64,000 bases of DNA from Actinomycetota bacterium (GTDB lineage Bacteria > Actinomycetota > Actinomycetes > Mycobacteriales > JACQDL01). Of this stretch, positions 20,636 through 37,119 are shown piece after piece. The translations under genes and the position numbers were made by a program. The notes under the pieces are model-generated. The model made no database searches. It was given only the letters and a program-made list of their open reading frames with translations, and had not been told where the DNA came from. The stretch covers positions 36,708-100,707 of the forward strand of contig JACQDL010000001.1 in NCBI GenBank assembly GCA_016201065.1, in the 5' to 3' direction. The first letter of the stretch is position 1; every line of letters begins with the position of its first letter.

Positions 20636-22276
20636 ATGGTGCTCGACCCTGACGCCCCGGTCCCGGACCGCGGCACGGCGAATGCGGGGAGATCCGGCTC
20701 GACCCGGTACCGTGAGCCGTCGGGTCCGCCCGGAAACCTCGCACCGGGGGTGGAAAACGTGGTGTTCAGCGGGTCCGGGACGCAGCCCGGGGTCGGCGTA
20801 CCGATGGCCATGATCTCCAGGCGGCTCACCCTCGGCACGGACGGGCTGACCCGGCAGCGCGCGGTCGGGCTCGCCGGCTCGCTGCTGCTGGCCACCGGCG
20901 GGCTGCTCGCCGGGGCCTACCCCCAGCACCCGAAGGACTTCTCGGTCTCCCAGGTCCTTGAGCTCACCCAGCTCGCGACGATCTGCGCCTACGGCGGCCT
21001 GGTGTTGCTGGTCGTCGCGTGGATGCACCTGGGCCGGCTGGTCCGCGGCACCAGCCCAGCGGCCGCCCGGCCGACCCGCCGCGAGCTGCTGCTCACCGCG
21101 GCCGGCTGGGCCGCCCCGCTGATGCTCGCACCGCCGCTGTTCAGCAGGGACGTGTACAGCTACGCGGCGCAGGGTGCGATGGTGCTGCACGGCCTGGACC
21201 CGTACGCCTACGGCCCGGAGGCGCTCGACAGCGGGCTGCGCGACGACGTCGACCGGCTGTGGACGGCGACACCCGCGCCCTACGGCCCGGTGTTCCTGAC
21301 CCTGGCCGCGCGCACGGTGTGGCTGACCGGCGAGCGGACCGCTCCGGCGGTGTTCGGCCTGCGGGTGCTGGCACTGATGGGTGTGCTGCTCATCGTGCAC
21401 TTCCTCCCCCGGCTCGCCAACCACCTCGGGGTCGACCCGAACGCGGCATTGTGGCTCGGCGTGCTCAACCCGCTGGTTCTGGTGCATCTGGTGGCCGGCG
21501 CGCACAACGACGCGTTGCTGATCGGGCTGATGGTCGCCGGGCTCACCCTCGTACTCGACGGCCTGCCCGCGCTCGGGGTGATCCTGTGCGCGCTCGCCCT
21601 GCTGGTGAAGGCGCCGGCCGGGCTGGCGTTGGCGTTCTGCGTGCCGCTGTGGGGTCAGCAGCTCACCGGTCGGCTCCGGCTGACCCGGGCTGCGCTTCTC
21701 ACCAGCGCCACGGCGGCCGGCACCATCGCCGTGACGAGCGCGGCCTGCGGCCTCGGCTACGGCTGGCTGGGCGCCCTGCAGACGCCGGGCCAGGTGCGCA
21801 ACTGGCTGTCGGTCACCACCACGATGGGCCAGCTCACCGGACTCGTGGGCGGCTGGTTCGGCGCTGGCGACCACCTCGACGGCGCGATCGCCGCCTGGCG
21901 CGGTGCCGGCGGCCTGGTCGCCGTCGCGGTGTGCGCGGTACTGCTGCTGCGGTCCAGACAGATCGGACCGGTCGCCGCGCTGGGCACCGCGCTCATCGCG
22001 GTGGTGGCGCTCGGCCCCGTCGTCCAGCCGTGGTACCTGCTGTGGGGCTTCGTGCTGCTGGCCGCGGCGAGCCGGGACGAGAACGTGCGCTCCCTCGTCG
22101 CCGGCGCCTCGGCGGCGATGGCCATGGTGCTGATGCCCCGCGGTGGCGCGCTGGCAGCCAGGGACATCGTCGAGGCGATCCTGGTGGGCGGCGTCGTCGC
22201 GGGCGTGGCGGTGCTGGTCGAGCGGAGCGTGGCCAAGCGGCCGCGGGCCACCGTCCCGACCGCCACCCGGGCGTGA
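20636..22276 (+). CDS. Polyprenol-phosphomannose-dependent alpha-1,6-mannosyltransferase (MptA/MptB type), copy 1
   Basis: LFSRDVYSYAAQG, TPAPYGPVFL, LNPL...H...GAHNDAL, VVQPWY; multi-TM; syntenic with Rv2174. Confidence 0.85.
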   Translation: MVLDPDAPVPDRGTANAGRSGSTRYREPSGPPGNLAPGVENVVFSGSGTQPGVGVPMAMISRRLTLGTDGLTRQRAVGLAGSLLLATGGLLAGAYPQHPKDFSVSQVLELTQLATICAYGGLVLLVVAWMHLGRLVRGTSPAAARPTRRELLLTAAGWAAPLMLAPPLFSRDVYSYAAQGAMVLHGLDPYAYGPEALDSGLRDDVDRLWTATPAPYGPVFLTLAARTVWLTGERTAPAVFGLRVLALMGVLLIVHFLPRLANHLGVDPNAALWLGVLNPLVLVHLVAGAHNDALLIGLMVAGLTLVLDGLPALGVILCALALLVKAPAGLALAFCVPLWGQQLTGRLRLTRAALLTSATAAGTIAVTSAACGLGYGWLGALQTPGQVRNWLSVTTTMGQLTGLVGGWFGAGDHLDGAIAAWRGAGGLVAVAVCAVLLLRSRQIGPVAALGTALIAVVALGPVVQPWYLLWGFVLLAAASRDENVRSLVAGASAAMAMVLMPRGGALAARDIVEAILVGGVVAGVAVLVERSVAKRPRATVPTATRA

Positions 22277-23838
22277 CCGCGACGCGGGCCGTCGTGGCAG
22301 CTCTCCGCCGAGAACCCTCACTGCGGGGGGTGCGGCTCACCGGCCTGACCGGCTCGCTGCTGCTGGTGTTCGGCTCGCTGGGGGCGGGCGCCCTCCCCGC
22401 GTACGACCCGGTGGCCCAGATCCCGCTGATCTCGGTGCTCCGCCGCGGAGCCGGACCGACGGTGGCCCTGGGGCTGACCTACCTCGGCGCGGCGACCCTC
22501 ACCCTGGCCTGGCTGTACCTCGGCCGGGTGGTGCGCTCCGGGCCTTCCGGCGCCGGTACCGCGGTCCGCGACCTGCTCCGCATCGGCTGGTGGTGGGGCG
22601 GCCCACTGCTGGTCGCCGTTCCGCTGTTCAGCCGTGACCTGTACAGCTACGCGGCCCAGGCGCAGATCACCCATGCCGGCCTCGACCCGTACTCGGTGGG
22701 CCCGCTCTCGCTGCCCGGGCCGTTCCTGGACGAGGTGGAGCAGCTCTGGGTGAACACGCCGGCGCCGTACGGGCCGCTGTGGCTGACCCTCGGACGGATG
22801 GTCGCGATCGTCACCCGGGACCACGTCGTGCTCACCGTCCTGTCCATGCGCCTGATCGCCGCCGGCGGCGTGCTGCTCACCGCACGGTTCCTGCCCAGGC
22901 TTGCCACCGCCTGCGGCGGCGACCCGCGGCTCGCGGTGTGGCTCAGCCTGCTCAACCCGCTGCTGCTGATCCACTTCATCGGTGGGGGGCACAACGACGC
23001 GCTGATGCTGGGCCTGGTGGTCGCCGGCCTCACGGTGGCCATGGAGGTCACACCCGGGTCCGACCGTGCGCGGCGTCGGCTGGCTCTGGCCGTGGTGCTG
23101 TGCACCCTGGCAGTGCTGATCAAGGTGCCGGCCGCGCTCGCGGTCGGGTTCCTGGTACCGATCTGGGCGGCCCGGATCAGGGCCGAGCGCCCATGGCTCG
23201 CCGCGACGGTCCGGGTCACCGGACTCGCCGTGCTGACCTTCGTGCTGGCCACCCTCGCCACCGGGCTCGGGATCGGCTGGATGCGGCAGCTCAACGGCGC
23301 GGGTGAGGTGGTGAACTTCCTGTCGATCCCGACCGGCCTGGCGATGGCGTTCAACGCGCTGCGTGGCGTGACCCGACTGGTCGATCCGGGCAACGCGACG
23401 ATCGCCGCGTTCCGGCTCGGGGGGCAGGCCATCACGGCGGTCATCGGGATCGTCCTGTGGACGCGGTCCTACCGGCTGCACCCGGTCCGGGCGCTCGGCG
23501 TGGCCCTGCTGGTGCTCGTCATGCTCGGCCCGGTCGTCCAGCCGTGGTACCTGATGTGGCCGCTGACCCTGCTCGCCGTGGCGCCGCTGGGGCAGCGCGC
23601 CGTGCTCGGGCTCGCCTGGATGTGCGCCTGGTTGGTGCTGCTCGTCTCGCCGCAGGGCGCGGCGCTGCTGCTCAACTGGACGCCGGTGATCGTCGCCGGG
23701 CTGGCCGCGGCGGTGGCGACCGGAACTCTGCTGAACTCACCCCCGCCGCCAGCCACGGAGCTCGATCTGCCGGAGCCGGCCGCCGCCGTACCCGCCGCCA
23801 GCGAGCCAGCGGCGGCACCGCACCCCCGGGTGGGTTGA
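22273..23838 (+). CDS. MptA/MptB-type mannosyltransferase, copy 2
   Basis: GTGA overlap with copy 1; LFSRDLYSYAAQA, TPAPYGPLWL, GGGHNDALM, VVQPWY. Confidence 0.85.
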   Translation: MTATRAVVAALRREPSLRGVRLTGLTGSLLLVFGSLGAGALPAYDPVAQIPLISVLRRGAGPTVALGLTYLGAATLTLAWLYLGRVVRSGPSGAGTAVRDLLRIGWWWGGPLLVAVPLFSRDLYSYAAQAQITHAGLDPYSVGPLSLPGPFLDEVEQLWVNTPAPYGPLWLTLGRMVAIVTRDHVVLTVLSMRLIAAGGVLLTARFLPRLATACGGDPRLAVWLSLLNPLLLIHFIGGGHNDALMLGLVVAGLTVAMEVTPGSDRARRRLALAVVLCTLAVLIKVPAALAVGFLVPIWAARIRAERPWLAATVRVTGLAVLTFVLATLATGLGIGWMRQLNGAGEVVNFLSIPTGLAMAFNALRGVTRLVDPGNATIAAFRLGGQAITAVIGIVLWTRSYRLHPVRALGVALLVLVMLGPVVQPWYLMWPLTLLAVAPLGQRAVLGLAWMCAWLVLLVSPQGAALLLNWTPVIVAGLAAAVATGTLLNSPPPPATELDLPEPAAAVPAASEPAAAPHPRVG

Positions 23839-23844
23839 CCGACG
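23830..23844 (+). repeat. 15-bp direct repeat, left copy (GTGGGTTGACCGACG); includes the stop codon of mannosyltransferase copy 2
   Basis: Identical to 37105-37119; bases differ immediately on both sides. Confidence 0.85.
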
Positions 23845-23889
23845 ATGTCTTGGCCTGGCTGGACCGCATCGTGCGGCAGGACCCGAACA
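23835..23889 (+). pseudogene. 5' fragment of RelE/ParE-superfamily (HigB/Gp49-like) toxin interrupted by the IS605 element
   Basis: LTDDVLAWLDRIVRQDPN joins in frame with 36538+ (SHRRVVYAIEALAEAGPNLGRPLVD). Confidence 0.85.
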
Positions 23890-23924
23890 TTGACTTCTTC
23901 CCGGCCGTGAACGGCCGGGATTCC
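23890..23924 (-). mobile_element. IS605 right end: GR guide GAAT, hairpin CCCGGCCG-TTCA-CGGCCGGG, cleavage tetramer TCAA
   Basis: Minus strand GGAATCCCGGCCGTTCACGGCCGGGAAGAAGTCAA; same GAAT/TCAA pair as IS608. Confidence 0.9.
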
Positions 23925-23935
23925 TCCAGTGCCGC

Positions 23936-24652
23936 TCATGCGGCACCTCGGCGGGTTCCTGCTTCGCGGGCAACCGCCGGGACGGGTCCCGGTCTCACGT
24001 CGCCTCCGCAGGCGTTGCTGTCCGCCAGCCCGGCGGCCAGTCTGCGACCCTCGACCAGGATGTTCCTGGCCGCGTTCACGTCGCGGTCGTGCTCGGTGCC
24101 GCACACGCGACAGGTCCACGCCCTGACGTCGAGGGGTTTCGGCCCGTCCCGGCGCCCGCATGCCGAGCACTGTCGGCGACGACGGGAACCAGCGGCCGAC
24201 CTTGGCGCGGTTCGCCGGGCCTCTCTCCTTGCGTGCCAGCTGGCGTTGGAGCCGGGCGAGCTTGCGGGACTTGCGGCGCAGGTGGCTCGGGTTCGCCACG
24301 ATCTCCCCGCCGGAGGTGGAAACCAACCGGTCCAGACCGAGGTCGATCCCAACGTCGTTCAGGCTGGCAGGTAGTGGTCGGTCAGCGACCTCAACAACGA
24401 ACGAGGGCGAGCCAGTTCCGGTAGGCGCGTCGGGCGTCCTGGCATGCCTGCACCAGCGCGACCGAGGCGACCTCGCCCAGCCACACCCGTTCTCCGGTGA
24501 GCTTGGCGAGGGTCACGACGCGGCGTTGCACCTGCGTGTCGGAGATCTTCCCCCCCGGCCGCGTGGGCGTCCTGGCGGGTACGGAGCGCGTCGTTGAACA
24601 CCACTCGAGCACACCCGAACGTGCGGGCCAGCATCTCCCGCTGGTCGGGTAC
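23936..24652 (-). pseudogene. tnpB: TnpB (IS200/IS605 RNA-guided nuclease) remnant with internal deletions and frameshifts
   Basis: Fragments QREMLARTFGCARVVFND; KISDTQVQRRVVTLAK...ALVQACQDARRAYRNW; SFVVEV...VGIDLGL (RuvC-I); NRAKV|GRWFPSS; CSACG...WTCRVCGTEHDRDVNAARNI (Zn ribbon, RuvC-III). RuvC-II region is missing. Confidence 0.92.
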
Positions 24653-24830
24653 CCGCCGACCGTGCGCCTCTCCCGGCTGGTGAACTCCCCCAACGGCGTC
24701 TCCGCCAGCAGTTCCGGTTGCGCACCCACCGCGAGCACCTATGGTTGCCGTCGTACTTCGCTGTGTCTTGCGGCGGCACCCCCTGTCGATCATCGGGGAG
24801 AACGTGGAGCAGCAGCGACGGCCCGCCTGA
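24650..24830 (+). pseudogene. tnpA: C-terminal fragment of TnpA (Y1 HUH transposase)
   Basis: YPPTVRLSRLVNSPNGVS, then frameshift to HLWLPSYFAVSCGGTPLSIIGENVEQQRRPA*. The usual catalytic Tyr position reads AAC (Asn) at 24801-24803; the HUH half is deleted. Confidence 0.85.
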
Positions 24831-25956: not shown

Positions 25957-27321
25957 ATGAACGTTGATCAGCACTCGACCGGCCAGGTCGCGCCGACGGT
26001 CTGGGAGCACCGTGAGATGCGGATGGCGTTGGCGTTCCGCGACCTGAAGGCCGTCTACGAACGCCTCCAGCGGGTGGGGGTGTCCCAGCGCCACATCGCT
26101 CGCCTGACCGGCCAGAGCCCGTCCGAGGTCTATGAGATCCTCAAGGGCCGCCGCGTCATGGCCCACGACGTGTTGGTGCGGGTCGCCGACGGATTGGGCA
26201 TCCCGCGCGGATACATGGGCCTCGCCTACGACGAATCAACGGAAATAGCCCTCGACCTGGCGACGGCGACGTGCTCTGGGAACGCCGACGAGCGGGACGA
26301 AGTCAGGCGGCTCCTCCGGCATGCCGCGAACGTCGCGATGGGTACTTCCGTTGAGGACGTCGCCCACTGGTGGCAACCCATCGACCGGCAGGTCGCGCCC
26401 GCGCCCACCGGCATCGGAATGCGCGACGTGGAGCACGTCGAGACGCTCACCGCCGCGATGCGTGCCCTGGACTACCGGTACGGCGGAGGAGCCTGCCGTG
26501 ACGCGGTAGCCGCCCACGTGCGGTGGACACAGCAACTCCTCACCGCATCCTGCGCCGACCGGACCCGTACCCGCCTGCATCGAGCGTTGGCAGACCTGCA
26601 CAATCTCGCGGGCTGGACCTCATTCGATGTCGGCATGTACTCCATTGCGCGAAAACATTTCGCACGCGCCCTCGAACAGGCCAAACACGCCGGAGATCTG
26701 TCGCTGGCCGCGAACGTGCTGTACCGCACGGGACGGCTCCACCTCCACCGTGGCATGCCCCGTGAGGCGCTGCGCTTCTTCCAGCTGGGGCAGATCACCG
26801 TCCAGGACAGTGGTTGCGGGCTGACGGTGGCGATGCTGTGCGCCAACGAAGGATGGGCCTACGCGTTGCTCGGCGACCGACCGCAGGTCCGGCGCTCGCT
26901 CGGGCGCGCCCGGGACGAGTTCACCCGCGCCGACCGCACCTCAGCTCCGGCCTGGGTGCGTTTCTTCGGCGATGCGGACCTGCACGCCTCCATTGGAGTG
27001 ACCTACTCCTCACAAACCAACGCGACCGCCAGTGAACTGACGCAGGCGATCGACCACATCAATCAGGCCATTGGGCTGCGGGGACCGGACATGACGCGCA
27101 GCCTGGTTTTCGAGCGGACCGCCCTCGCGGTGGCGCACCTGCGGGCCGGAAACCGGGACGTGGGGCTGGCGGTGGGACGCGAGGCGACCGCCTCCGGTGT
27201 TCGTTCGCTGCGCACCCTGGATCGGCTCGAACCGTTGCAGAGCATCGCCGCCACGCGCCACGGCGATACCGCCCTCGAGGATCTGGGGCACCAGATCGCG
27301 AGCTTGCGAGCGGCGTCGTGA
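25957..27321 (+). CDS. XRE-family transcriptional regulator with C-terminal TPR-like domain
   Basis: N-terminal HTH (VSQRHIARLTGQSPSEV), D..YGGG, LADLHNLAGW..FDVG, AWVRFF..ADL. Confidence 0.88.
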   Translation: MNVDQHSTGQVAPTVWEHREMRMALAFRDLKAVYERLQRVGVSQRHIARLTGQSPSEVYEILKGRRVMAHDVLVRVADGLGIPRGYMGLAYDESTEIALDLATATCSGNADERDEVRRLLRHAANVAMGTSVEDVAHWWQPIDRQVAPAPTGIGMRDVEHVETLTAAMRALDYRYGGGACRDAVAAHVRWTQQLLTASCADRTRTRLHRALADLHNLAGWTSFDVGMYSIARKHFARALEQAKHAGDLSLAANVLYRTGRLHLHRGMPREALRFFQLGQITVQDSGCGLTVAMLCANEGWAYALLGDRPQVRRSLGRARDEFTRADRTSAPAWVRFFGDADLHASIGVTYSSQTNATASELTQAIDHINQAIGLRGPDMTRSLVFERTALAVAHLRAGNRDVGLAVGREATASGVRSLRTLDRLEPLQSIAATRHGDTALEDLGHQIASLRAAS

Positions 27322-28238
27322 CCGGCGGCGCAGGCACCGCCGGTCACGCGACTTCCACCACGGTCCCCGACACGCTTCGGATCGCGCTCCACGACGTCTG
27401 CGCAACAGCGGGTCTCGACCCGACCGGAGCACAGTTGATCAAGTTCACCAACAACGCCGTGTTCGAACTGGCTGGAGCACCAGTGGTGATCCGTATCGCC
27501 GGGTCGCAGACGGCGCGCGACCGGGTCCCCACAGTGATCACAGTGGCACGCTGGCTCGCCGCGCACGACATGCCCAGCGTGCGGCTCGACCCTCGCGTGG
27601 ACCAACCGGTCCGGTCCGGAGGCCACCTGGCAACCCTGTGGCGACAGGTACCGAACATCGGCCCCGCCCCCACCGGCACCGACCTTGGGCGGATCCTTCG
27701 CCGCTACCACGCGCTGCCCCCGCCCGAGCAGCCGCTGCCCACCTGGCGTCCACTGCGGCCAATACGGCAGCGTCTCACCGAAACCGACATGCTCAGCGAC
27801 AGCGACCGCGAGTTCCTGGACGCGACGTGCGACGAGCTTGAAGACGCACTGAGCCGTCTGGATTGCCAACTCCCACCCGGACCGATCCACGGCGACCCTT
27901 TCCTCGGCAACCTGATACCCGGACCCGGCGGGCCGGTGATCTGCGATTTCGATTCTGCGGCCAACGGCCCACGGGAGTGGGATCTCACTCCCGTGGCCGT
28001 TGGTGGACTTCGGTTCCGCTACGTGGGCGAGGCGCCCACCCAACTCGCCCACGCCTACGGAACGGACCTGACCAGGTGGCCCGGCTTCACGGTGTTGCGA
28101 AAGCTTCGTGAATTGCAGCTCGTCACCAGTGTCGTGCCGGTCCTGCGACGCAACCCGGCGCTTACCGAACAGTGGCGCCATCGATTTACGACATTCCGCG
28201 ACCAGGATCACGCCGCGGTCTGGACCCCCTACCGGTAG
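27318..28238 (+). CDS. Aminoglycoside-phosphotransferase-like (APH/choline kinase fold) protein
   Basis: GTGA overlap; TNNAVF.L, IHGDPFLGN (Brenner motif), CDFD...GPREWDL. Confidence 0.88.
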   Translation: MTGGAGTAGHATSTTVPDTLRIALHDVCATAGLDPTGAQLIKFTNNAVFELAGAPVVIRIAGSQTARDRVPTVITVARWLAAHDMPSVRLDPRVDQPVRSGGHLATLWRQVPNIGPAPTGTDLGRILRRYHALPPPEQPLPTWRPLRPIRQRLTETDMLSDSDREFLDATCDELEDALSRLDCQLPPGPIHGDPFLGNLIPGPGGPVICDFDSAANGPREWDLTPVAVGGLRFRYVGEAPTQLAHAYGTDLTRWPGFTVLRKLRELQLVTSVVPVLRRNPALTEQWRHRFTTFRDQDHAAVWTPYR

Positions 28239-28320
28239 CCGGCGCTGACCCGCTGATCCAGACCATCGGCACCAACCCTCGGGCCGGCGCGGTCCGGGAA
28301 CCTCGAGATGGAGGACACCC

Positions 28321-28479
28321 ATGTCCAGCAGCACATTGCCGCAGCACCCGACCGTATGCACGGACGGGTTCGACCTGGACGTCACCGTGTTGGAGGTGGC
28401 TGATCCGGCCGGCCTGGTCAATGTGACCGACGACGGTTGCACCAGTACATGCGGAGCCTGTGTCACCAACATGGCCTGA
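28321..28479 (+). CDS. lanA: FxLD-family class I lanthipeptide precursor, 52 aa (not in the ORF track)
   Basis: GGAGG at 28310-28314; MSSSTLPQHPTVCTDGFDLDVTVLEVADPAGLVNVTDDGCTSTCGACVTNMA*; FDLD leader motif, Thr/Ser/Cys-rich core, directly upstream of lanB. Confidence 0.93.
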   Translation: MSSSTLPQHPTVCTDGFDLDVTVLEVADPAGLVNVTDDGCTSTCGACVTNMA

Positions 28480-28509: not shown

Positions 28510-31500
28510 GTGTCCGGTCTCCATCCGATACGTCTACCGGGCGTGAACCGGTCTGACCCGCCACGGGAGGTCGTCTTGCCGCCGTACGCTCGTCAGCCCG
28601 GGTACCGGGTCGCTGGTGCGGCACTCCTCCGCGCCACCGCCCACCCGATGCCGGAGGTCCCGCCGTGGCCGGACCTGGCCGACTCGACACCCGGGGCAGC
28701 CGCAGCCGGCGTGACCTGGCTTCGACAGGTCTGGGCGATCGACCACCTCGCCGACGCGATCGAGCACGCCAGCCCGGCGCTGGACCGGCAGGTACGGGCG
28801 CTGTGCGCCGCCGAGGTTCCCCCGGCTCGAAAGACCCGGCGTGCGGTGCTGTCGGTGGTGCGGTACCTGCACCGCATGACGGGGCGAGCCACGCCGTTCG
28901 GTTTGCTGGCGGGTGTCGCGTCGGCGAGTTTCGCGTCGCCCGCTCAGGTGCGGTGGGGTACCGACCACCGGCCTGTAGCCCGGGCCGCGGCGGAGTGGCT
29001 TGCCGGTGTGCTGGCGCGGTTGGAGGACTGCCCCGAACTTCTCGCCCGGCTGCCGGTGGTCGCCAACACCACACTGATGGTGCGTGGGGACCGGCTGGTC
29101 GTGCCGTATCAGCCGCAGGCCCGCGCCCGGGGGATCGGCGCGGTGGAGGTCTCGCTGCGGTACACCGCCGTCGTGCACGCCGTCATCGAAGCAGCCAGCA
29201 CACCGATCCAGATGGAGGATCTGGCCGCGACAATCCAGGCCGACCATCCGACGGCGCCCGGGGCGAAGATCACCGCGATGCTCACCGAACTGGTCCAGCG
29301 TGGTGCGCTGCTCACCAGCGTTCGCGCACCCAGCACCGAGCCGGACGCCTTGGGGCATCTTGTGGACCAGTTGGACGCGGTCGGCGCCCCCACCCTTGGC
29401 GCGGTCGGTGGGCTGGCCACGGCGGTGCGGGAGGTCCACTCAATGCTTGAGCGGCACAACCAGACGCCCGCCGCTGAGGGACGCCAGATCCGGGTAGCAG
29501 CCTCCACCCGGATGCGTGAGCTGGCGCCCACCACACGGCACCCCTTGGCGTTGGACCTTCGGCTCGACGGGACCTTCGTTCTTCCCGAGCAGGTCGCGCG
29601 GGAGGTCGAACACGCCGCGTGGGTGCTGACCCGGTTGAGCGCCTATCCGGTGGGGACGCCGACGTGGCGCGGCTACCACCAGCGGTTCTACGAACGGTTC
29701 GGTATCGGTTCGCTGGTTCCGCTGCGTGAGGTGATCGGCGACAGCGGCATCGGCTGGCCTGACGGCTACCCGGGTACGGTCGTACCAGAGCCCCGTTCGC
29801 CGATGTCGAGCCGGGACGAGACCCTGCTGGGGTTGGCCCAACGCGCCGCCCTCGACGGCCTCGACGAGGTTGTCGTGGATGAGCACCTGATCTCGGCGCT
29901 GCGGCTGGGGCCGACGCAGCACCGCCCACCGGCGCATCTGGAGATCGGTGTCCGGATACGTGCCACAAGCCACGCGGCCATGGCGTGCGGTGACTTCCTG
30001 ATCGAGGTGCTCAACGTCTCGCGTGCGGCTGGCGTGCTGACCGGACGGTTCCTCAGCGTCCTGGACCCCGAGGGCCGGACCGGCCTGGCGCGTACCCTCA
30101 CGGATCTGCCCGGTACCGACGGTGACACGGTGGCGGCACAGCTGTCGTTCCCGCCACTGGACCCCGCGACCGCGCACGTCACGCGGGCGATGCCGATCCT
30201 GCCCACCGTGGTCAGTCTTGCCGAGTACCGCACCGCTGACGAGCGGGTCTTGACCATCGACGATCTCGCGGTGGGCTGCGACGGCCACCGGATGTACCTG
30301 GCGGCGCCGGCCCGTGGACTGCGGGTGGAGGCCGCGGGTGCGCATGCGCTGAACCTCAAGACCCACACCCCGCCCCTCGCCCGGTTCCTGATCGAACTCA
30401 GCCGGGCGCAGTGCGCGCAGGTCACAGTGTTCTCCTGGGGCGCTGCCGGGTGCCTGCCGTTCCTGCCACGGTTGCGCTACGGCCGTACCGTCCTGTCCCC
30501 GGCGCGGTGGCGGCTGGAGGCATCCGACCTCCCGGCCCGCGGGGCGCCGTTGGTCGCCTGGGAGCGTGCCCTGACCGTGTGGCGGGCGCAGCGGCGGGTA
30601 CCGGGCCTGGTGTATCTGGCCGAAGGGGACCGGCTGCTGCCACTGGACCTGGACCGCTGCGGGCACCGTGTCCTGTTGCGCACCCACCTCGCCTCGACGC
30701 CGCACGCGGTGCTGATCGAAGCCCCCGGCGTTCACGACACCAACGACTGGTGCGGCGGGCGCGCCCACGAACTCATCGTTCCGGTCGTCGCCACCGAACC
30801 GGCATCGTGGCCGCCGCTGCCGACACCGACCGGCGCACGCGTCGTCGGCCGCGAGCACACCCACACGCCTGCCGTCTGCGGGGTCATGCTGGCCAGCCTG
30901 TACGGGGATGTCCACCGCCAGGACACCATCTTGTCCGGATACCTTCCCGCGCTGCTGGCCGAGTTCGACGAACCCGCCTGGTGGTACATCCGCTACCGCG
31001 ATCCCGACCACCACCTGCGGCTACGGTTCGCGTTGACCGACCCGGCGAGGTTCGGTGAGATGGCCCGCGCGGTCAGCACCTGGGCGGAGGAACTCAACCG
31101 GATCGGATTGGTGCGCGACCTGCGGTACCCGACATCCCATCCGGAGATCGGGCGCTGGGGATCGGGCCCGGCCTGGGCTGCCGCGGAGGAGGTGTTTCGC
31201 GCCGACTCCCGGGCCCTGCTGGTTCAGCTGGGCCAACTGTGCCACCCACACCGGCTGGCACTCACGGCCGCCCACACAGTCGCCATCACGATCGCGTTCA
31301 CCGGCAGCGCGACCGCCGGCATGCGGTGGCTGTTGGACCATGTGCCGGCCACCGCCCCGACGCCGGTGCCGCGGCCGGTCTTCGCCGAGGCTGTTCGCCT
31401 GGCTGATCCCCGCGGCGGTTGGGCGTGTCTGCGCGCCGCACCTGGTGGGGCGGCGATCCACGACGTGTGGCCGCCGCGCGAGACGGCTCTGGCCGCCTAC

Positions 31501-31683
31501 CGCCGCCACCTCGACGGCCCACACACCCAGGGCATCGCCGTCGATGACGTTCTCCGGTCCCTCCTGCACGCCAACTTCGTGCGCGCCAGCGGCATCGACT
31601 TCGACGGCGAAGCCACCGGGTTGTACCTGGCCCGTGCCGCGGCCCTCGCCTGGACGGCCCGCACGACAGGCCGTCAGCCATGA
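28510..31683 (+). CDS. lanB: Lanthipeptide dehydratase (glutamylation and elimination domains), 1057 aa
   Basis: YLHRMTGRATPFGLLAG, LPFLPRLRYG..VL.PARW, C-terminal WWYIRYRDPDHHLRLRF, YP...E..RWG. Confidence 0.94.
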   Translation: MSGLHPIRLPGVNRSDPPREVVLPPYARQPGYRVAGAALLRATAHPMPEVPPWPDLADSTPGAAAAGVTWLRQVWAIDHLADAIEHASPALDRQVRALCAAEVPPARKTRRAVLSVVRYLHRMTGRATPFGLLAGVASASFASPAQVRWGTDHRPVARAAAEWLAGVLARLEDCPELLARLPVVANTTLMVRGDRLVVPYQPQARARGIGAVEVSLRYTAVVHAVIEAASTPIQMEDLAATIQADHPTAPGAKITAMLTELVQRGALLTSVRAPSTEPDALGHLVDQLDAVGAPTLGAVGGLATAVREVHSMLERHNQTPAAEGRQIRVAASTRMRELAPTTRHPLALDLRLDGTFVLPEQVAREVEHAAWVLTRLSAYPVGTPTWRGYHQRFYERFGIGSLVPLREVIGDSGIGWPDGYPGTVVPEPRSPMSSRDETLLGLAQRAALDGLDEVVVDEHLISALRLGPTQHRPPAHLEIGVRIRATSHAAMACGDFLIEVLNVSRAAGVLTGRFLSVLDPEGRTGLARTLTDLPGTDGDTVAAQLSFPPLDPATAHVTRAMPILPTVVSLAEYRTADERVLTIDDLAVGCDGHRMYLAAPARGLRVEAAGAHALNLKTHTPPLARFLIELSRAQCAQVTVFSWGAAGCLPFLPRLRYGRTVLSPARWRLEASDLPARGAPLVAWERALTVWRAQRRVPGLVYLAEGDRLLPLDLDRCGHRVLLRTHLASTPHAVLIEAPGVHDTNDWCGGRAHELIVPVVATEPASWPPLPTPTGARVVGREHTHTPAVCGVMLASLYGDVHRQDTILSGYLPALLAEFDEPAWWYIRYRDPDHHLRLRFALTDPARFGEMARAVSTWAEELNRIGLVRDLRYPTSHPEIGRWGSGPAWAAAEEVFRADSRALLVQLGQLCHPHRLALTAAHTVAITIAFTGSATAGMRWLLDHVPATAPTPVPRPVFAEAVRLADPRGGWACLRAAPGGAAIHDVWPPRETALAAYRRHLDGPHTQGIAVDDVLRSLLHANFVRASGIDFDGEATGLYLARAAALAWTARTTGRQP

Positions 31684-32954
31684 CCAGCGAACACCTCGCC
31701 AGCGCCATGGCCGGCGCCGTCGCCGATCGACTGGCGCGCCCCGATACCGTGCCCACGCACCTGACCGAGGCGATCTGGTGGCGGCAATCCCTGGCGCATG
31801 GCGCGCCCGGAATCGCGCTGCTACACGTCGAGCGCGCCGCCGCCGGACTCGGACCATGGGAGCGGGCACACGACTGGCTCGCCTACACGGCGCGCGCCGC
31901 GCTCACCACCGGACCCGACAGTCACCTGTTCTACGGCGCCCCAGCCCTCGCCCACGTCCTCGCCTGCGCCGCCGCGCACCGGCCCGGCGCCTACACCCGG
32001 GCGCTGGCCCGCCTTGACCACGCCATTGCCGTCGACACCCACAACCGAGTCGGTGACGCCCACGCCCGCATGGACCGGGGCGAGCTGCCCGCCCTCGCCG
32101 ACTTCGACGTGATTCGAGGTCTCAGCGGTGTCGGCTCCCTGCTGCTGCGCCGCGACCCCCACGGCCTGGCGCTGCACGCCGTCCTCGACTACCTCGTCCG
32201 GCTCACCGAGCCCGTGAGGGGCGACGGGCAGGCCCTGCCCGGCTGGTGGACCACGTCGAGTCCCTCCGGGCGCGACAGCGGCCAGTTCCCCGGAGGCCAC
32301 GGCAACACTGGTGTGGCACACGGCATCGGTGGTGTGCTCGCCCTGCAGGCGCTCGCAACTCGACACGGCATCACCGTGGACGGCCAGCGGGAGGCCATGG
32401 GACGGATCTGCGCCTGGCTGGACCGGTGGCGCACCGACACCGGCGCGGGCCCAGTCTGGCCGTACTGGGTCAACCTCGCTCACCTGCGCGCCGGACACCA
32501 CGACACCACCGACCGGCAGCCACCGAGCTGGTGCTACGGCACCGCCGGCCTGGCCCGGGCCCAACAACTGGCCGCCATGGCCACCGGTGACACCCACCGC
32601 CAAGACTTCGCCGAACGCGCACTGGTCCAGGCCCTATCGGGTGTCGTTCAACGCTCCACCACGACGAATGCCTCCCTATGTCATGGCTACGCCGGGTTCG
32701 CCCACATCGCCAGTATCGTGGCGGCCGACGCCAGCACCGATGCCGCTGCGGCACTGCGGGCACTGACCCAAGACCTGCTGAACGCGCTCCAACCCGCCGA
32801 CGTCGATCCCGCCGAGACCGCCGCCCGCCTCGTTCGCGGCGACGACGGACCGGGATTCCTGGAAGGCGCCGCCGGGATCGCGCTGGCGGTCCTGGCTCCC
32901 AGCGCCGCGACCCGGCCCCAAACCGGCTGGGACACCTGCCTGCTCATCACCTGA
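31680..32954 (+). CDS. lanC: Lanthionine synthetase C (cyclase)
   Basis: FDVIRGLSG, GVAHGIGG, SWCYGTAG and LCHGYAG (Zn ligands Cys/Cys/His intact), FLEGAAG. Confidence 0.94.
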   Translation: MTSEHLASAMAGAVADRLARPDTVPTHLTEAIWWRQSLAHGAPGIALLHVERAAAGLGPWERAHDWLAYTARAALTTGPDSHLFYGAPALAHVLACAAAHRPGAYTRALARLDHAIAVDTHNRVGDAHARMDRGELPALADFDVIRGLSGVGSLLLRRDPHGLALHAVLDYLVRLTEPVRGDGQALPGWWTTSSPSGRDSGQFPGGHGNTGVAHGIGGVLALQALATRHGITVDGQREAMGRICAWLDRWRTDTGAGPVWPYWVNLAHLRAGHHDTTDRQPPSWCYGTAGLARAQQLAAMATGDTHRQDFAERALVQALSGVVQRSTTTNASLCHGYAGFAHIASIVAADASTDAAAALRALTQDLLNALQPADVDPAETAARLVRGDDGPGFLEGAAGIALAVLAPSAATRPQTGWDTCLLIT

Positions 32955-32985: not shown

Positions 32986-35088
32986 ATGCCGCACCCGATG
33001 CCACCGACCCCCTGGCGCCAGTACAACGTCGAGTTTCCCGATCGGGCGACCGCGGCGTGGACCGCCGCGCACGACCTCCACCCGGCGTTGACCGCGGCAC
33101 AGGAGACCGGTGCGCTTCACGGGTGGTGGTTCGTGCGTAAACAACCCTGGAAGCTCCGATACCTACCCGACGACCCCGACTCCCGTGTGATCACCGAACT
33201 GTTGGACACGCTCACCACGCAGGGCCGGGTCGCCGGGTGGGCGGTGGGGACCTACGAACCCGAAACGCGGGCCTTCGGCGGTGACGCCGCGATGGACGTC
33301 GCCCACGCGCTGTTCCACCGCGACAGCCACCACATCCTGGCCCGCGCCGCGCAGGCCAACGGCGCGCTCCCGTGGCGGCGGGAGACCACGGTCCTGTTGT
33401 GCAGTGCCATGCTGCGCGCCGCGGGGTTGGACTGGTACGAGCAGGGCGACGTCTGGTCGAAAGTCGCCGCGTTGCGCCCCGACACACCCACGACCACCAC
33501 CACCGGACGAGCCACGGCACTGGTGGGGTCCATGCGGCAGCTCATGGCCACCGACACCCGCACCTTGTGCGCACCCGGTCGTGGTCCCCTCGCCGGCTGC
33601 GGCAGCTGGCTGGACGCCTTCGAGAGCACCGGGTACCAGCTGGCGGAGCTGGCACGGCACGGCGAGCTGACCCGGGGACTACGCGCCGTCCTCGCCCACC
33701 ACGTCATCTTCCACGCCAACCGCGCCGCGCTACCCGCAGCTGACCAGGCCACCCTGGCCGGGTTGGCGGTCGACGCCGTCTTCACCTCCACCGACGACCC
33801 CGTGTCGCCACTCACCGCGACACCACCACCCACTAAGGTGCCCGAAATGACCACTGTCCGTGACGACATCCCCGCCGCGTCCGCCGACCAACTGCGCCAC
33901 GATCTCACCACCCGGCTACATGGAATGAACGCCATTCGGACCCCCGCCATCGAAGCGGCCTTCCGGCGGACACCGCGACACCTGTTCCTTCCGGGTCTAC
34001 CGGTGGAGCAGGCATACGCCGACACCCCCATCTACACCAAGCAGGATGCCTGTGGCGCGTCGATCAGCGCGGCCTCCCAACCATGGATGGTCGCGGGCAT
34101 GCTCGAACAGCTCGACGCCCAACCCGGCGAGCGGATCATGGAAGTCGGTGCGGGCACGGGATACAACGCGGCGCTGCTCGCCGCGGTCGTCGGCGCGCCC
34201 GGTCACGTCACCACGATCGACGTCGACGACGACCTCGTCACCGCTGCCCGACAGCACTTGAGCGCCGCCGGCGTCGGCAACGTCGACGTCGTCCTCGGCG
34301 ATGGCGCGCTGGGGCATCCCGAAGGCGCCCCCTATGACCGGATCATCGCCACGGTGGGCGCCTACGAGACACCCACCGCGTGGCTGGAGCAGCTCGCACC
34401 CGGCGGGCGTCTGGTCGTTCCGGTCCGGCTGCGCGGCACCACCTCCCGCTCCATCGCCTTCGAGCGCGACACCCACGCCTGGGTCAGCCGGGGCTCCAAG
34501 CTGGCGGTCTTCATGCCGCTGCGCGGGATCGCCGACGACGCCCGGCGGATCGTCGCGCTCACCCCCGAGCAGGATGTGACACTGCAGGTCAACAAGGACC
34601 ATCTGGTTGACGACCCGGCCCTGGTGGGAGTGTTGGACACCACCCGGCATGAGGAATGGTCCGGTGTGCACCATCCACCCAACGTTCCGTTCGAGTGGAT
34701 GGAACTGTGGTTGTGCCTGCGCCTGGACAATCCCCTCATGCGCATGAACACCCAACCCTCGGCGGCCGACCGTGGCCAGGTCACCCCCATGTTCCCGTGG
34801 GGTTCCATGGCCACCACCCGAGACCATGACCTTGCCTACCTCACCATCCGACCAGCACCACCGGCCAGTGACGGCGGGAAGCTGTACGAGGTCGGCGTCA
34901 TCGGCCACGGACCCGACGGCAGCAGCCTCGCGCAGCGCGTCGCCGAGGAGATCCGGACCTGGGACGGCCAATTCCGTGGCCGTGGCGCCCGATTCGAAAT
35001 CCCCGACACGCCCACCACCAACGACCCGGCAGCCGGTCGATTCGTCCTGGACCGACCCCACCACCCCATCACCGTCATCTGGGAATGA
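32986..35088 (+). CDS. Fusion of a Lant_dehydr_C-like glutamyl-lyase domain and a PIMT-like O-methyltransferase (FxLD system)
   Basis: N-terminal WWFVRKQPWKLRY, YEPE...FGG..AMDVAHALFH.DS, HHVIFHANR. C-terminal AFRRTPRHLFLP, SAASQP, MEVGAGTGYNAA (SAM), YDRIIATVG, PGGRLVVP. Confidence 0.92.
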   Translation: MPHPMPPTPWRQYNVEFPDRATAAWTAAHDLHPALTAAQETGALHGWWFVRKQPWKLRYLPDDPDSRVITELLDTLTTQGRVAGWAVGTYEPETRAFGGDAAMDVAHALFHRDSHHILARAAQANGALPWRRETTVLLCSAMLRAAGLDWYEQGDVWSKVAALRPDTPTTTTTGRATALVGSMRQLMATDTRTLCAPGRGPLAGCGSWLDAFESTGYQLAELARHGELTRGLRAVLAHHVIFHANRAALPAADQATLAGLAVDAVFTSTDDPVSPLTATPPPTKVPEMTTVRDDIPAASADQLRHDLTTRLHGMNAIRTPAIEAAFRRTPRHLFLPGLPVEQAYADTPIYTKQDACGASISAASQPWMVAGMLEQLDAQPGERIMEVGAGTGYNAALLAAVVGAPGHVTTIDVDDDLVTAARQHLSAAGVGNVDVVLGDGALGHPEGAPYDRIIATVGAYETPTAWLEQLAPGGRLVVPVRLRGTTSRSIAFERDTHAWVSRGSKLAVFMPLRGIADDARRIVALTPEQDVTLQVNKDHLVDDPALVGVLDTTRHEEWSGVHHPPNVPFEWMELWLCLRLDNPLMRMNTQPSAADRGQVTPMFPWGSMATTRDHDLAYLTIRPAPPASDGGKLYEVGVIGHGPDGSSLAQRVAEEIRTWDGQFRGRGARFEIPDTPTTNDPAAGRFVLDRPHHPITVIWE

Positions 35089-35089
35089 C

Positions 35090-36217
35090 ATGCACCGCAC
35101 CGGGCCGATCGCCCGCCGCTTCCCCCTCGTGGCCCGCGCCCGCCCACCGTGCCCGCCGCTGGCAGACCGGGTCGACCGACTGCGCGCACTCGCCGACACA
35201 GCCGACCAGAACGACGACCTCGCCACCGCCTCCGCCGTCTTCAACCAGGCGGCGCTGCTCGCCTCGGACTGCGGTCTACCCGACCTGGCCAGGCAGTGGT
35301 GCCACCGGCACACCGGTGTCCACCTGCGGGCGCTGCCTGTGGACGCGCGGGCGGCCCGCCACGCCCTGGAACCCATCGTCAACCTCGCCCGCCTGCACAT
35401 CCGGGCAGGCCACGGCGACACCGCATTCCACCTCTTGGACTCCCTCTTCGAGGCGGTCGATGCCCGCACTGATGTCGTCATCGACGGTGTGTCGCTGCCC
35501 ATCACCCAGCTGACCCGGACAGCCACCGACCACCGAGAACTCCGCCAGTGGCTGTGGACCGTTCACCTCGCCGACGGCAGCCGCGCCCTCACCAGCATCG
35601 GCCGCTGGCAGGACGCCCACGAGCACCTGCACCGCCGACACGGCATCGGCACACGGATGCTCGACGGCCGCCAGGTTGCGGTCATCACCCACCTCACCGC
35701 GGACAACCACGCGCACGCCAAAGCACTGATCGACGGCACCGCAGCCGGCGAGCCCTGGGAGTCCGCCGTGACCAGATGCCTGGCCGCACTGTGCCACGCA
35801 GACGGTGACCACGCGACCCTCAACGACATCACCGCCATGCTGGAGGGCTACCGACCACTCCCCCCCACCCCCAGCCTGGCCGTGTTCCACGGCCGGTTGT
35901 GCCTGTCCGTCATCGACGCGGCCGGTGGCATCAGGCATCCCGGTGCACGCGACCTCGCCAACACGCTGATCCAGCAGACGCGGGCCTCCCGCGACGGGTA
36001 CCTCACACGCGACGTACTCGCCCACGACGGCTGCGTCACAATGCTCACCAACGACCAACGGCGCGACCTCGGTGAGATGCTCAAGGCCACCGCGCTGGGA
36101 CTCCGGGACATCCCCACGCAGCTGTACGCACGCCTCACGGCGGCATTGGACACCAGCGAAGCCGTGCTGGCGCGCACGTTGGCCGCGCGACCGCAGCGCA
36201 CCCGGTCTGTCAGGTAG
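35090..36217 (+). CDS. Conserved hypothetical protein coupled to the FxLD cluster (helical/TPR-like)
   Basis: ATG 1 nt after the methyltransferase stop; RFPLVARARPPC.PL..RV, AVFNQAALLASDCG.PDLA, LEP.VNLARL; 375 aa intact. Confidence 0.75.
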   Translation: MHRTGPIARRFPLVARARPPCPPLADRVDRLRALADTADQNDDLATASAVFNQAALLASDCGLPDLARQWCHRHTGVHLRALPVDARAARHALEPIVNLARLHIRAGHGDTAFHLLDSLFEAVDARTDVVIDGVSLPITQLTRTATDHRELRQWLWTVHLADGSRALTSIGRWQDAHEHLHRRHGIGTRMLDGRQVAVITHLTADNHAHAKALIDGTAAGEPWESAVTRCLAALCHADGDHATLNDITAMLEGYRPLPPTPSLAVFHGRLCLSVIDAAGGIRHPGARDLANTLIQQTRASRDGYLTRDVLAHDGCVTMLTNDQRRDLGEMLKATALGLRDIPTQLYARLTAALDTSEAVLARTLAARPQRTRSVR

Positions 36218-36502: not shown

Positions 36503-36541
36503 CCCTGAACGGCCGGGCTTGCGCCAGCAAAGAAGGGGTCA
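36503..36541 (-). mobile_element. IS605 left end, outer half, plus target tetramer TGAC (36541-36538)
   Basis: Minus strand TGAC|CCCTTCTTTGCTGGCG-CAAG-CCCGGCCGTTCAGGG. CAAG predicts TGAC under the IS608 guide/target pairing rule. Confidence 0.85.
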
Positions 36542-36842
36542 CCGACGAGTCGTCTACGCCATCGAGGCCCTCGCCGAAGCAGGGCCCAACCTGGGCCGGC
36601 CGCTCGTAGACCGGGTCAAGGGCTCCACAGTGCACAGCTTCAAGGAACATCGACCTGGCTCGGCAGGCACCAGCGAGATCAGGGCCCTGTTCGTGTTCGA
36701 CCCCTGGCGTTCGGCGATCGTGCTGGTCGCCGGAGACAAGGCCGGCAACTGGAACGGCTGGTACCGCCAAGCCATCCCGCGCGCCGAGGAGCTGTAGGCG
36801 ATCTACCTGGAGGAACGAGCCCACGAGGAGAGTGCACCGTAG
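36538..36842 (+). pseudogene. 3' part of RelE/ParE-superfamily (HigB/Gp49-like) toxin, with a premature TAG at 36795
   Basis: HRRVVYAIEALAEAGPNLGRPLVDRVKGS...E.RPGSAGTSEIRALFVFDPWRSAIVLVAGDKAGNWNGWYRQAIPRAEEL*AIYLEERAHEESAP*. Confidence 0.88.
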
Positions 36843-37113
36843 GCGACACCCGCTGGTCGCAGATCCGCAACAAGCACATCGCCGCGGCCTGACTCAACGC
36901 GACATCGCGGCCGTCATGGGCGTCACCGTCGGCCGGGTCTCCCAGATCGAATCGGGCGACGTCTCCGGCATTGACGTCCTCGACCGCTACGTCACCGCCA
37001 TCGGCGGCCTGCTGGAGATCGTCGCCAACTTTGGCGACGAACAATTCAAGGGAGGACGTCGAGGGTGTCCAGGCCCCGTTGGGTGGCGGATCTGGTTCCT
37101 CACTGTGGGTTGA
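36839..37113 (+). pseudogene. HigA-like HTH antitoxin remnant (internal deletion, no clear start)
   Basis: DTRWSQIRNKHIAAA, then a frame change to RGLTQRDIAAVMGVTVGRVSQIESG...LDRYVTAIGGLLEIVANFGDE. Confidence 0.8.
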
Positions 37114-37119
37114 CCGACG
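37105..37119 (+). repeat. 15-bp direct repeat, right copy (GTGGGTTGACCGACG)
   Basis: Identical to 23830-23844. Confidence 0.85.

What the first reader, a model, noticed from the sequence alone, without database searches (positions are those of the whole stretch)
28321..28479. Unannotated 52-aa FxLD lanthipeptide precursor with a TDDGC ring motif
Seen: strong SD, FDLD leader motif, core ...T36-D-D-G-C40-T-S-T-C44-G-A-C47-V-T-N-M-A52 with three Cys and five Ser/Thr; an extra Cys13 sits in the leader. It is below the ORF-track cutoff. Known: in olv-type clusters a PIMT-like enzyme converts a ring Asp to isoAsp via aspartimide. Inference: up to three (methyl)lanthionine rings, with D38 (Asp-Gly) the likely isomerised residue.
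Basis: partly seen in the sequence, partly recalled or inferred. Interest (0 to 1): 0.7.

Follow-up and report, generated by a model that had tools for sequence, protein, structure and literature searches.

The report
Precursor peptide of a coi-type lanthipeptide
The small gene is real and encodes the precursor of a very common, already named actinobacterial lanthipeptide family (the coi / "lanthivirin" type reported to protect against phages), so it is a correct but largely ordinary find.

Summary
The 52-codon ORF at 28321-28479 (+) is exactly as described: GGAGG six bases upstream, an FDLD leader motif and the core TDDGCTSTCGACVTNMA. It passes NCBI's curated model for FxLD lanthipeptides (40.2 bits, cut-off 30). 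It has homologues in at least 200 species genomes, which NCBI already names "FxLD family lanthipeptide". T36, D37, D38, C40, T43, C44 and C47 are invariant across 68 distinct DNA versions that differ at synonymous sites.

It heads a five-gene operon: lanA, LanB, LanC, a glutamyl-lyase/PIMT-methyltransferase fusion (LanSA) and a LanH/CoiH homologue.

By homology the product should carry three methyllanthionine rings: T36-C40, T43-C47 and C44-T49. The last is probably D-allo-L, made through the extra syn-lyase. The A ring should be oxidised to a sulfoxide by LanH, and D38 (Asp-Gly) methylated to aspartimide/isoAsp.

Differences from CoiA1 are a one-residue-shorter C-terminal bicycle (C-x3-C-x2-C) and a sporadic co-transcribed regulator plus APH-kinase pair. 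The cluster sits on a ~13-kb island that is absent at this site in same-family genomes. Verdict: new member of a known kind, low-to-moderate interest.

The parts
28310..28314 (+). Shine-Dalgarno GGAGG, 6 nt before the lanA start codon
   Evidence: sequence read directly
28321..28479 (+). lanA: 52-aa FxLD-family class I lanthipeptide precursor
   Evidence: (TIGR04363 40.2 bits > 30)
28369..28380 (+). leader recognition motif F17-D-L-D20
   Evidence: F17, L19, D20 invariant
28426..28440 (+). predicted A ring T36-D37-D38-G39-C40 (MeLan T36-C40). D38 (28432-28434) is the predicted methylation/aspartimide/isoAsp site. The ring sulfur is the predicted LanH sulfoxidation site.
   Evidence: invariant T, D, D, C; analogy to CoiA1 in PMC9486935 and bioRxiv 10.64898/2026.08.26.747419
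28447..28467 (+). predicted overlapping B/C rings T43-C47 and C44-T49. This part is one residue shorter than in CoiA1 (C-x2-C instead of C-x3-C).
   Evidence: ring pattern inferred from PMC9486935
28576..31683 (+). LanB, full-length class I dehydratase (glutamylation plus anti-elimination domains), TTG start behind GGGAGG
   Evidence: PF04738 697 bits, PF14028 109 bits; LLHAN His retained
31680..32954 (+). LanC cyclase; WCYG, LCHG and GVAHG motifs present
   Evidence: (PF05147 149 bits)
32998..35088 (+). LanSA (LphDE/CoiSA type): N-terminal syn-type glutamyl-lyase domain fused to a PIMT-like O-methyltransferase
   Evidence: TIGR04364 446 bits > 320; TIGR03891 165 bits; K48, K52, R54, E89 correspond to CoiSA K46, R51, R53, E89; MEVGAGTGYNA SAM motif
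35090..36217 (+). LanH/CoiH (LvnF) homologue, 375 aa; the family is reported to oxidise the A-ring methyllanthionine to a sulfoxide
   Evidence: syntenic in all complete related loci, 42-60% identity; D60, N98, R101, L336 correspond to the essential D59, N97, R100, L332; no Pfam, NCBIfam or PADLOC hit
25957..27321 (+). NsdA-family HTH-TPR regulator, co-directional with lanA; probably the pathway regulator
   Evidence: NF053720 269 bits > 75; a relative lies next to lanA in 67 of 80 loci
27318..28238 (+). APH-family phosphotransferase overlapping the regulator's stop (GTGA); a sporadic neighbour, not a conserved cluster gene
   Evidence: PF01636 68 bits; absent from 78 of 80 loci; recurs at L098 and L101
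23830..37119 (.). about 13.3-kb accessory island carrying the cluster, bounded by exact 15-bp direct repeats
   Evidence: 2 copies, 0.02 expected; IS605 OrfB HTH remnant 24359-24793; flanking genes about 0.7 kb apart in same-family genomes G002 and G003

Best explanation
The ORF is the precursor gene (lanA) of a coi-type class I lanthipeptide cluster, the family also called lanthiphage or lanthivirin. Shown here by sequence: the FxLD-family precursor, LanB, LanC, the GL-PIMT fusion LanSA and a LanH/CoiH homologue are all intact, tightly packed and syntenic with more than 70 related loci. Inferred from the characterised coi and olv systems: LanB glutamylates T36, T43 and T49 using Glu-tRNA. Its own lyase domain eliminates at T36 and T43 to give Z-Dhb. 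The syn-lyase domain of LanSA eliminates at T49 to give E-Dhb. LanC then closes three methyllanthionines: T36-C40 (A ring), T43-C47, and C44-T49 (overlapping, probably D-allo-L). LanH oxidises the A-ring thioether to a sulfoxide. The PIMT domain of LanSA methylates D38, the second Asp, which is followed by Gly; the ester collapses to an aspartimide that may persist or open to isoAsp. No transporter or protease is encoded nearby. With the published phage-challenge data for relatives, this fits an intracellular anti-phage role.
For: Precursor. Enzymes: (PF04738/PF14028, PF05147, TIGR04364 at 446 bits). LanC Zn/acid motifs and the SAM motif; the syn-GL hallmark Lys (K48), where LanB has Tyr, and LanH residues D60, N98, R101 and L336 matching the four residues reported essential in CoiH. 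Synteny A-B-C-SA-H holds in every complete locus of the 80. A coi-like locus in S. coelicoflavus has a leader 90% identical to the published CoiA1 leader and residue numbers that fit the papers; it served as the bridge for residue mapping. No ABC transporter or LanP-type protease lies within about 10 kb. Literature: PMC9486935 (ring pattern and stereochemistry of mCoiA1); bioRxiv 10.64898/2026.08.26.747419 (CoiH sulfoxide; second Asp as methylation site); PMC13001092 and PMC7268733 (OlvSA chemistry; conserved Asp); bioRxiv 10.1101/2024.06.26.600839 (anti-phage activity, LphB/C/DE/F architecture).
Against: Nothing here tests chemistry or expression: only DNA metagenome runs hold the sequence. 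The core differs from CoiA1 by one residue in the bicyclic part (C-x3-C-x2-C against C-x3-C-x3-C), so ring sizes and even ring partners could differ. S/T42 is also conserved and might be dehydrated. R51 of CoiSA is Lys here. Methyltransferase activity of the fused CoiSA type is itself inferred from OlvSA in the literature. The mature coi product, and whether the leader is removed, are still unresolved. Anti-phage activity was shown for five relatives, none with a core I could confirm as this type.
Confidence: 0.88

Rival explanations
1. Olv-type product: a lanthipeptide whose only extra modification is Asp to isoAsp by a stand-alone-type PIMT enzyme, with all rings made through ordinary anti-elimination.
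For: The PIMT domain and the T-D-D-G-C ring are shared with OlvA/OlvSA (PMC13001092).
Against: The methyltransferase carries an N-terminal PF14028 domain with the syn-lyase Lys, and a LanH homologue with all four essential residues follows it. Olv-type clusters lack both (PMC9486935; bioRxiv 10.64898/2026.08.26.747419).
Confidence: 0.04
2. Same enzymes but a different scaffold: because the C-terminal part is one residue shorter, the ring partners or the number of dehydrations differ from CoiA1. For example, S42 could be dehydrated, or non-overlapping rings could form.
For: C-x2-C spacing is invariant in all 80 related loci and S/T42 is conserved 68/68. CoiC is reported to be finely tuned to its substrate geometry (PMC9486935).
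Against: The hydroxy residues at 36, 43 and 49 and the Cys at 40, 44 and 47 line up one-to-one with the modified residues of CoiA1. T41 is Gly in most relatives.
Confidence: 0.2
3. The product is a secreted antibiotic or morphogen rather than an intracellular anti-phage agent.
For: Most characterised class I lanthipeptides are secreted antimicrobials. The mode of action of lanthivirins is unresolved.
Against: No transporter, immunity gene or protease lies in or near the cluster. Related clusters gave phage protection and no activity in spent medium (bioRxiv 10.1101/2024.06.26.600839). The cluster sits in an island with toxin-antitoxin and IS remnants.
Confidence: 0.1
4. The cluster is silent or decaying cargo and the ORF is no longer functional.
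For: Neighbouring IS and toxin-antitoxin genes are degraded (earlier notes). No RNA data exist.
Against: All five genes are full length with catalytic motifs intact. The sequence is identical in four independent metagenome runs. The core matches the family consensus at every invariant position.
Confidence: 0.04

Closest known systems
coi cluster of Streptomyces coelicolor A3(2) (CoiA1-3, CoiB, CoiC, CoiSA, CoiH), also called lanthiphage_Sco or lanthivirin (LphA/B/C/DE/F, LvnF)
   Same: Same gene set and order. FxLD leader. T-D-D-G-C A ring with the double Asp. Thr-Cys pair followed by Cys and a C-terminal Thr. GL-PIMT fusion with the syn-lyase Lys. LanH with the four essential residues. No transporter or protease. 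About 45-52% protein identity to the S. coelicoflavus coi-like enzymes.
   Different: One precursor gene instead of three. The spacer between leader and core differs (VADPAGLVNV against SGDGSATVINL). The last Cys spacing is C-x2-C, not C-x3-C, so the two overlapping rings would each be one residue smaller. CoiSA R51 is Lys here. The regulator is an NsdA-type protein (with an APH kinase), not conservon Cvn8. The host is an uncultured groundwater Mycobacteriales lineage.
The widespread paralogous cluster type with core TDD[GN]C[GT][ST]TCGAC (e.g. Streptomyces coelicoflavus L021, Sphaerimonospora cavernae L042, Actinomadura spp.)
   Same: Identical Cys/Thr pattern; the core is 86-92% identical in the Streptosporangiales members. 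Same five genes. An NsdA-family regulator lies next door in 67 of 80 loci.
   Different: The window has G39 (Asp-Gly) where most Streptomyces members have Asn. It has T41 and V48 where they have G and T. Its regulator is co-directional and coupled to an APH kinase. I found no paper that characterises a member of this exact core type.
olv cluster of Streptomyces olivaceus NRRL B-3009 (OlvA, OlvB, OlvC, OlvSA; PDB 6PQF)
   Same: Class I FxLD precursor with a conserved ring Asp that a PIMT homologue methylates, giving aspartimide and then isoAsp. Similar ring positions.
   Different: OlvSA has no lyase domain, there is no LanH, OlvA has an extra N-terminal Lan ring, and the MeLan stereochemistry differs (PMC9486935).

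Membership tests
FxLD family lanthipeptide (NCBIfam TIGR04363) | Score above the curated cut-off of the family model | tested here: met
   40.2 bits against a cut-off of 30, residues 15-49
FxLD family lanthipeptide (NCBIfam TIGR04363) | F-x-L-D motif in the leader and a Cys/Ser/Thr-rich C-terminal core | tested here: met
   F17-D-L-D20; three Cys and five Ser/Thr in residues 36-49
FxLD family lanthipeptide (NCBIfam TIGR04363) | Encoded beside LanB, LanC and the FxLD-system methyltransferase | tested here: met
   PF04738/PF14028, PF05147, and TIGR04364 at 446 bits > 320
coi-type lanthivirin / lanthiphage cluster | Methyltransferase fused to a second (syn-type) glutamyl-lyase domain with the conserved Lys (CoiSA K46) | tested here: met
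   PF14028 covers residues 10-261 and PF01135 covers 306-511 of one 696-aa protein. K48 aligns with K46, where LanB has Tyr. Whether the catalytic His is absent could not be settled from the alignment.
coi-type lanthivirin / lanthiphage cluster | LanH/CoiH homologue directly after the methyltransferase, with D59, N97, R100 and L332 | tested here: met
   375-aa protein starting 1 nt after the LanSA stop codon; D60, N98, R101 and L336 align with those residues; syntenic in the related loci
coi-type lanthivirin / lanthiphage cluster | [quoted passage not shown] | tested here: met
   T36-D-D-G-C40; T, D, D and C invariant in 68 DNA versions
coi-type lanthivirin / lanthiphage cluster | Core motif T-x-D-x-C-x3-C-x3-C (57% of lanthiphage cores; CoiA1) | tested here: not met
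   The window and all 80 related loci have T-x-D-x-C-x3-C-x2-C. The coi-like peptides of S. coelicoflavus have x3. This motif defines the commonest core variant, not the family as a whole, which has nine variants.
coi-type lanthivirin / lanthiphage cluster | No dedicated transporter or protease in the cluster | tested here: met
   Pfam scans of the genes from about 16 to 50 kb show none apart from a housekeeping M19 dipeptidase 10 kb upstream
coi-type lanthivirin / lanthiphage cluster | Three dehydrations, three MeLan rings (one D-allo-L), A-ring sulfoxide, Asp methylation | not testable with these tools
   Needs expression and MS/NMR; expected masses are given under next steps
coi-type lanthivirin / lanthiphage cluster | Protection against phages | not testable with these tools
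   The context only fits: accessory island with toxin-antitoxin and IS remnants. PADLOC 2023 has no model for the system.
olv-type cluster | Stand-alone methyltransferase (about 400 aa) without a lyase domain, and no LanH | tested here: not met
   Fusion protein and LanH are present. Stand-alone forms of 406-468 aa occur in other genomes of the same order.

The most novel reading that the evidence does not exclude
The NsdA-type HTH-TPR regulator that is translationally coupled to an APH-family kinase and reads straight into lanA may be a dedicated signal-sensing or tailoring module of this lanthivirin subtype. Regulator-kinase or regulator-phosphatase pairs with 4-nt overlaps recur at three other loci. 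The one-residue-contracted bicyclic core may also define a structurally distinct lanthivirin with its own phage specificity.
Probability: 0.12. Interest if true: 0.5.

Novelty: new member of a known kind. Interest (0 to 1): 0.25.

Why it matters
It adds one more member to what has been called the most abundant class I lanthipeptide family of Actinobacteria. The family's precursor, enzymes and likely anti-phage role are already described, and genome annotation pipelines already name it. There is some modest value. It shows the family in a small-genome, uncultured groundwater Mycobacteriales lineage, on a 13-kb island that is missing at the same site in relatives. It also belongs to a large core subtype (C-x3-C-x2-C, in at least 200 species genomes) for which I found no structural study. 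The mature structure, the leader processing and the mode of action of lanthivirins are still open, so a compact single-precursor cluster with an Asp-Gly site could be a convenient experimental subject.

Tried and rejected
- A PDB sequence search with the peptide found nothing, even at E 10, so OlvA (6PQF) could not be aligned directly.
- The Acedo 2019 paper (PMC6812601) is not held. The supplements of PMC9486935 did not give the CoiA1 sequence. I used the leader printed in the 2026 preprint to find a coi-like locus in S. coelicoflavus instead.
- The lanA-lanB spacer has no significant RNA structure (z -0.76).
- No promoter-like or credible terminator-like sites rose above shuffles.
- PADLOC gave only a generic methyltransferase hit (mad2) and a weak NsdC-type hit, with nothing for the system itself.
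- The APH kinase was rejected as a conserved cluster gene: it is absent from 78 of 80 loci.
- Whether the syn-lyase domain lacks the catalytic His could not be decided from the LanB/LanSA alignment, because the His columns are offset by one.
- The last protein search went to RpoB to place the host, so LanH and APH homologues were not surveyed in the big database.
- I could not assign the cluster to one of the published ten clades or nine core variants, because those tables are not held.

Full report
**Observation.** The ORF is present exactly as described. It starts at ATG 28321 and ends with TGA at 28479. The product is MSSSTLPQHPTVCTDGFDLDVTVLEVADPAGLVNVTDDGCTSTCGACVTNMA. GGAGG lies at 28310-28314, six bases before the ATG. 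This ATG is the first start codon after the upstream stop. The leader has F17-D-L-D20. The C-terminal part has Cys40, 44 and 47 and Ser/Thr at 36, 41, 42, 43 and 49. Cys13 lies in the leader.

**More than chance.**
- The peptide passes NCBI's curated model TIGR04363, 'FxLD family lanthipeptide', with 40.2 bits against a cut-off of 30.
- A search of 5.8 billion proteins returned 45 relatives with E from 5e-16 to 2e-7. Many are named 'FxLD family lanthipeptide' by NCBI or JGI.
- A scan of species-representative genomes found 200 encoding stretches, of which 80 were fetched.
- In 68 distinct DNA versions of the F17-T49 segment, T36, D37, D38, C40, T43, C44, G45, A46 and C47 never change while their codons do. 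This is the signature of selection on the peptide.
- Cys13 is not conserved.
- The exact 52-aa protein is already a called gene on four public contigs from groundwater metagenomes.

**Surroundings.** lanA heads a tight plus-strand operon:
- LanB, 28576-31683, 1035 aa (PF04738 plus PF14028).
- LanC, 31680-32954 (PF05147). The WCYG, LCHG and GVAHG motifs are present.
- A 696-aa fusion, 32998-35088. Its N-terminal half is a second Lant_dehydr_C domain. Its C-terminal half is the 'methyltransferase, FxLD system' (TIGR04364, 446 bits, cut-off 320), with the SAM motif MEVGAGTGYNA.
- A 375-aa protein with no family hit, 35090-36217, starting one base after the preceding stop codon.

This five-gene order is kept in every complete locus among the 80 relatives, with 42-72% protein identity.

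**What it is.** The literature identifies this architecture.
- Walker et al. [quoted passage not shown]
- Sarksian and van der Donk (PMC9486935) separate the olv type from the coi type. The olv type has a stand-alone methyltransferase. In the coi type the methyltransferase CoiSA carries an extra glutamyl-lyase domain and a protein CoiH follows it.
- Shomar et al. (bioRxiv 10.1101/2024.06.26.600839) showed that such clusters (LphB, LphC, LphDE, LphF) protect Streptomyces against phages.
- Chen et al. (bioRxiv 10.64898/2026.08.26.747419) showed that CoiH oxidises the A-ring methyllanthionine to a sulfoxide. They state that the methyltransferase domain acts on the second Asp of the A ring.

**Residue mapping through a bridge locus.** I located a coi-like locus in Streptomyces coelicoflavus using the published CoiA1 leader (90% identity). 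Its peptide MNANTIKAQAQSPAATAEGDAFDLDISVLESGDGSATVINLTDDGCKPSCKGSCATNVA reproduces the published numbering: A36, T42, D43, D44, C46, C50, C54 and T56. Its CoiSA-like protein has K46, R51, R53 and E89 at the published positions.
- In the window's LanSA the corresponding residues are K48, K52, R54 and E89. At the Lys position both LanB proteins have Tyr. The extra domain is therefore of the syn-lyase kind.
- The window's 375-aa protein aligns over its full length with the CoiH-like protein. It has D60, N98, R101 and L336 where CoiH has the four residues reported as essential.
- The cluster is thus coi-type, not olv-type.

**Predicted product.** In mCoiA1 the rings are Thr-Cys (i, i+4; LL), Thr-Cys (i, i+5; DL) and Cys-Thr (D-allo-L, made through the syn-lyase), with the last two overlapping (PMC9486935). 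The window's conserved residues map one-to-one:
- T36-C40 is the A ring.
- T43-C47 and C44-T49 are the overlapping rings.
- Position 49 is Thr or Ser in all relatives. T41 is usually Gly and V48 is usually Thr, so neither is likely to be a ring residue.
- D38 is the second Asp and is followed by Gly, the most succinimide-prone context. Most Streptomyces relatives have Asn there.

It omits the predicted D-allo-L ring and the sulfoxide.

One real difference from CoiA1 is the spacing C44-G-A-C47 (x2) instead of x3. It is invariant in all 80 relatives, so this is a distinct and very common core subtype. S. coelicoflavus carries both types in one genome (L021 and L094). I found no paper on the structure of this subtype. 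S/T42 is also conserved and could be a fourth dehydration site. These points keep the ring assignment at moderate confidence.

**Context.**
- No ABC transporter or lanthipeptide protease lies within about 10 kb. The flanks are housekeeping genes: M19 dipeptidase, MTHFR and polyprenyl synthetase upstream, and TetR, thiE, Rv2175c-like, thiG, thiO and a PASTA kinase downstream.
- The cluster lies between exact 15-bp direct repeats at 23830 and 37105 (0.02 expected by chance). It sits with an IS605 OrfB remnant and a Gp49/HigB-like gene.
- In two genomes of the same family, the homologue of window gene 20636-22276 and thiE lie about 0.7 kb apart, against 15.8 kb here. The cluster is therefore on an accessory island.
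- Of 40 relatives, neither same-family genome has the FxLD methyltransferase. The four same-order genomes that have it carry open frames of only 406-468 aa, the size of the stand-alone form rather than the ~700-aa fusion.
- RpoB places the host among uncultured 'Mycobacteriales bacterium' MAGs (87-92% identity). The genome is 3.65 Mb, and all four runs that hold the sequence are labelled groundwater metagenome.

**Regulator and kinase.** Upstream and co-directional are an NsdA-family HTH-TPR regulator (NF053720, 269 bits) and an APH-family phosphotransferase. Their coding regions overlap by GTGA.
- A related regulator lies next to lanA in 67 of 80 loci, usually divergently oriented. It is probably the pathway regulator.
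- The kinase is absent from 78 of 80 loci, so it is not a core component.
- Similar regulator-enzyme pairs with 4-nt overlaps do recur: regulator plus PfkB kinase, and regulator plus APH (a 180-nt gap, no overlap), in the closest metagenomic relative; regulator plus APH in Sphaerimonospora; and regulator plus HAD in S. millisiae. This is the only feature with some potential for novelty. I rate that potential as low.

**Verdict.** It is a new member of a known kind. Earlier notes of this scan on the same genome and on other genomes reached the same family assignment. I read those only after forming my own view. They are not independent evidence.

Noticed in passing
window 23830-23844 and 37105-37119; 24359-24793 (-); 36519-36797 (+): Exact 15-bp direct repeats bracket a 13.3-kb island that holds the lanthipeptide cluster, an IS605 OrfB HTH remnant and a Gp49/HigB-like toxin gene. 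In same-family genomes G002 and G003 the flanking genes lie about 0.7 kb apart.
   Followed up: partly
window 25957-27321 and 27318-28238; L098 4456-6695 and 554-2762; L101 5236-7475; L102 7553-9783: NsdA-type HTH-TPR regulators coupled by 4-nt overlaps to small phosphotransfer enzymes (APH, PfkB, HAD) recur next to lanthivirin clusters of this subtype in distant hosts. They are absent from most Streptomyces loci.
   Followed up: partly
own genome G000:C32 (L088 988-3209, minus strand); also G000:C6 (L087) and G000:C52 (L086): The same 3.65-Mb genome has a graspetide-type pair: ATP-grasp maturase TIGR04187 (421 bits) next to methyltransferase TIGR04188 (398 bits), both over their cut-offs. It also has two further long PIMT-like genes. 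It therefore probably makes at least two kinds of aspartimide-bearing peptides.
   Followed up: partly
L094 9724-10897 (S. coelicoflavus coi-like locus): A second PIMT-like methyltransferase lies just after the CoiH-like gene. The tblastn match is split over two frames, so there may be a frameshift.
   Followed up: no
L065 9698 and 10001 (Streptosporangium sp. DT93): Two adjacent precursor genes with different cores sit in one cluster: TDGGCGSTCGSSC (x3 spacing) and TDDGCTSTCGAC (x2 spacing).
   Followed up: no
window 22300-24400: About 2 kb between the last clear housekeeping gene and the island has long ORFs on both strands but no family hit and no clear codon-position GC signal. It may be a decayed paralogue of the 546-aa upstream gene, because G003 has two tandem copies.
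   Followed up: no
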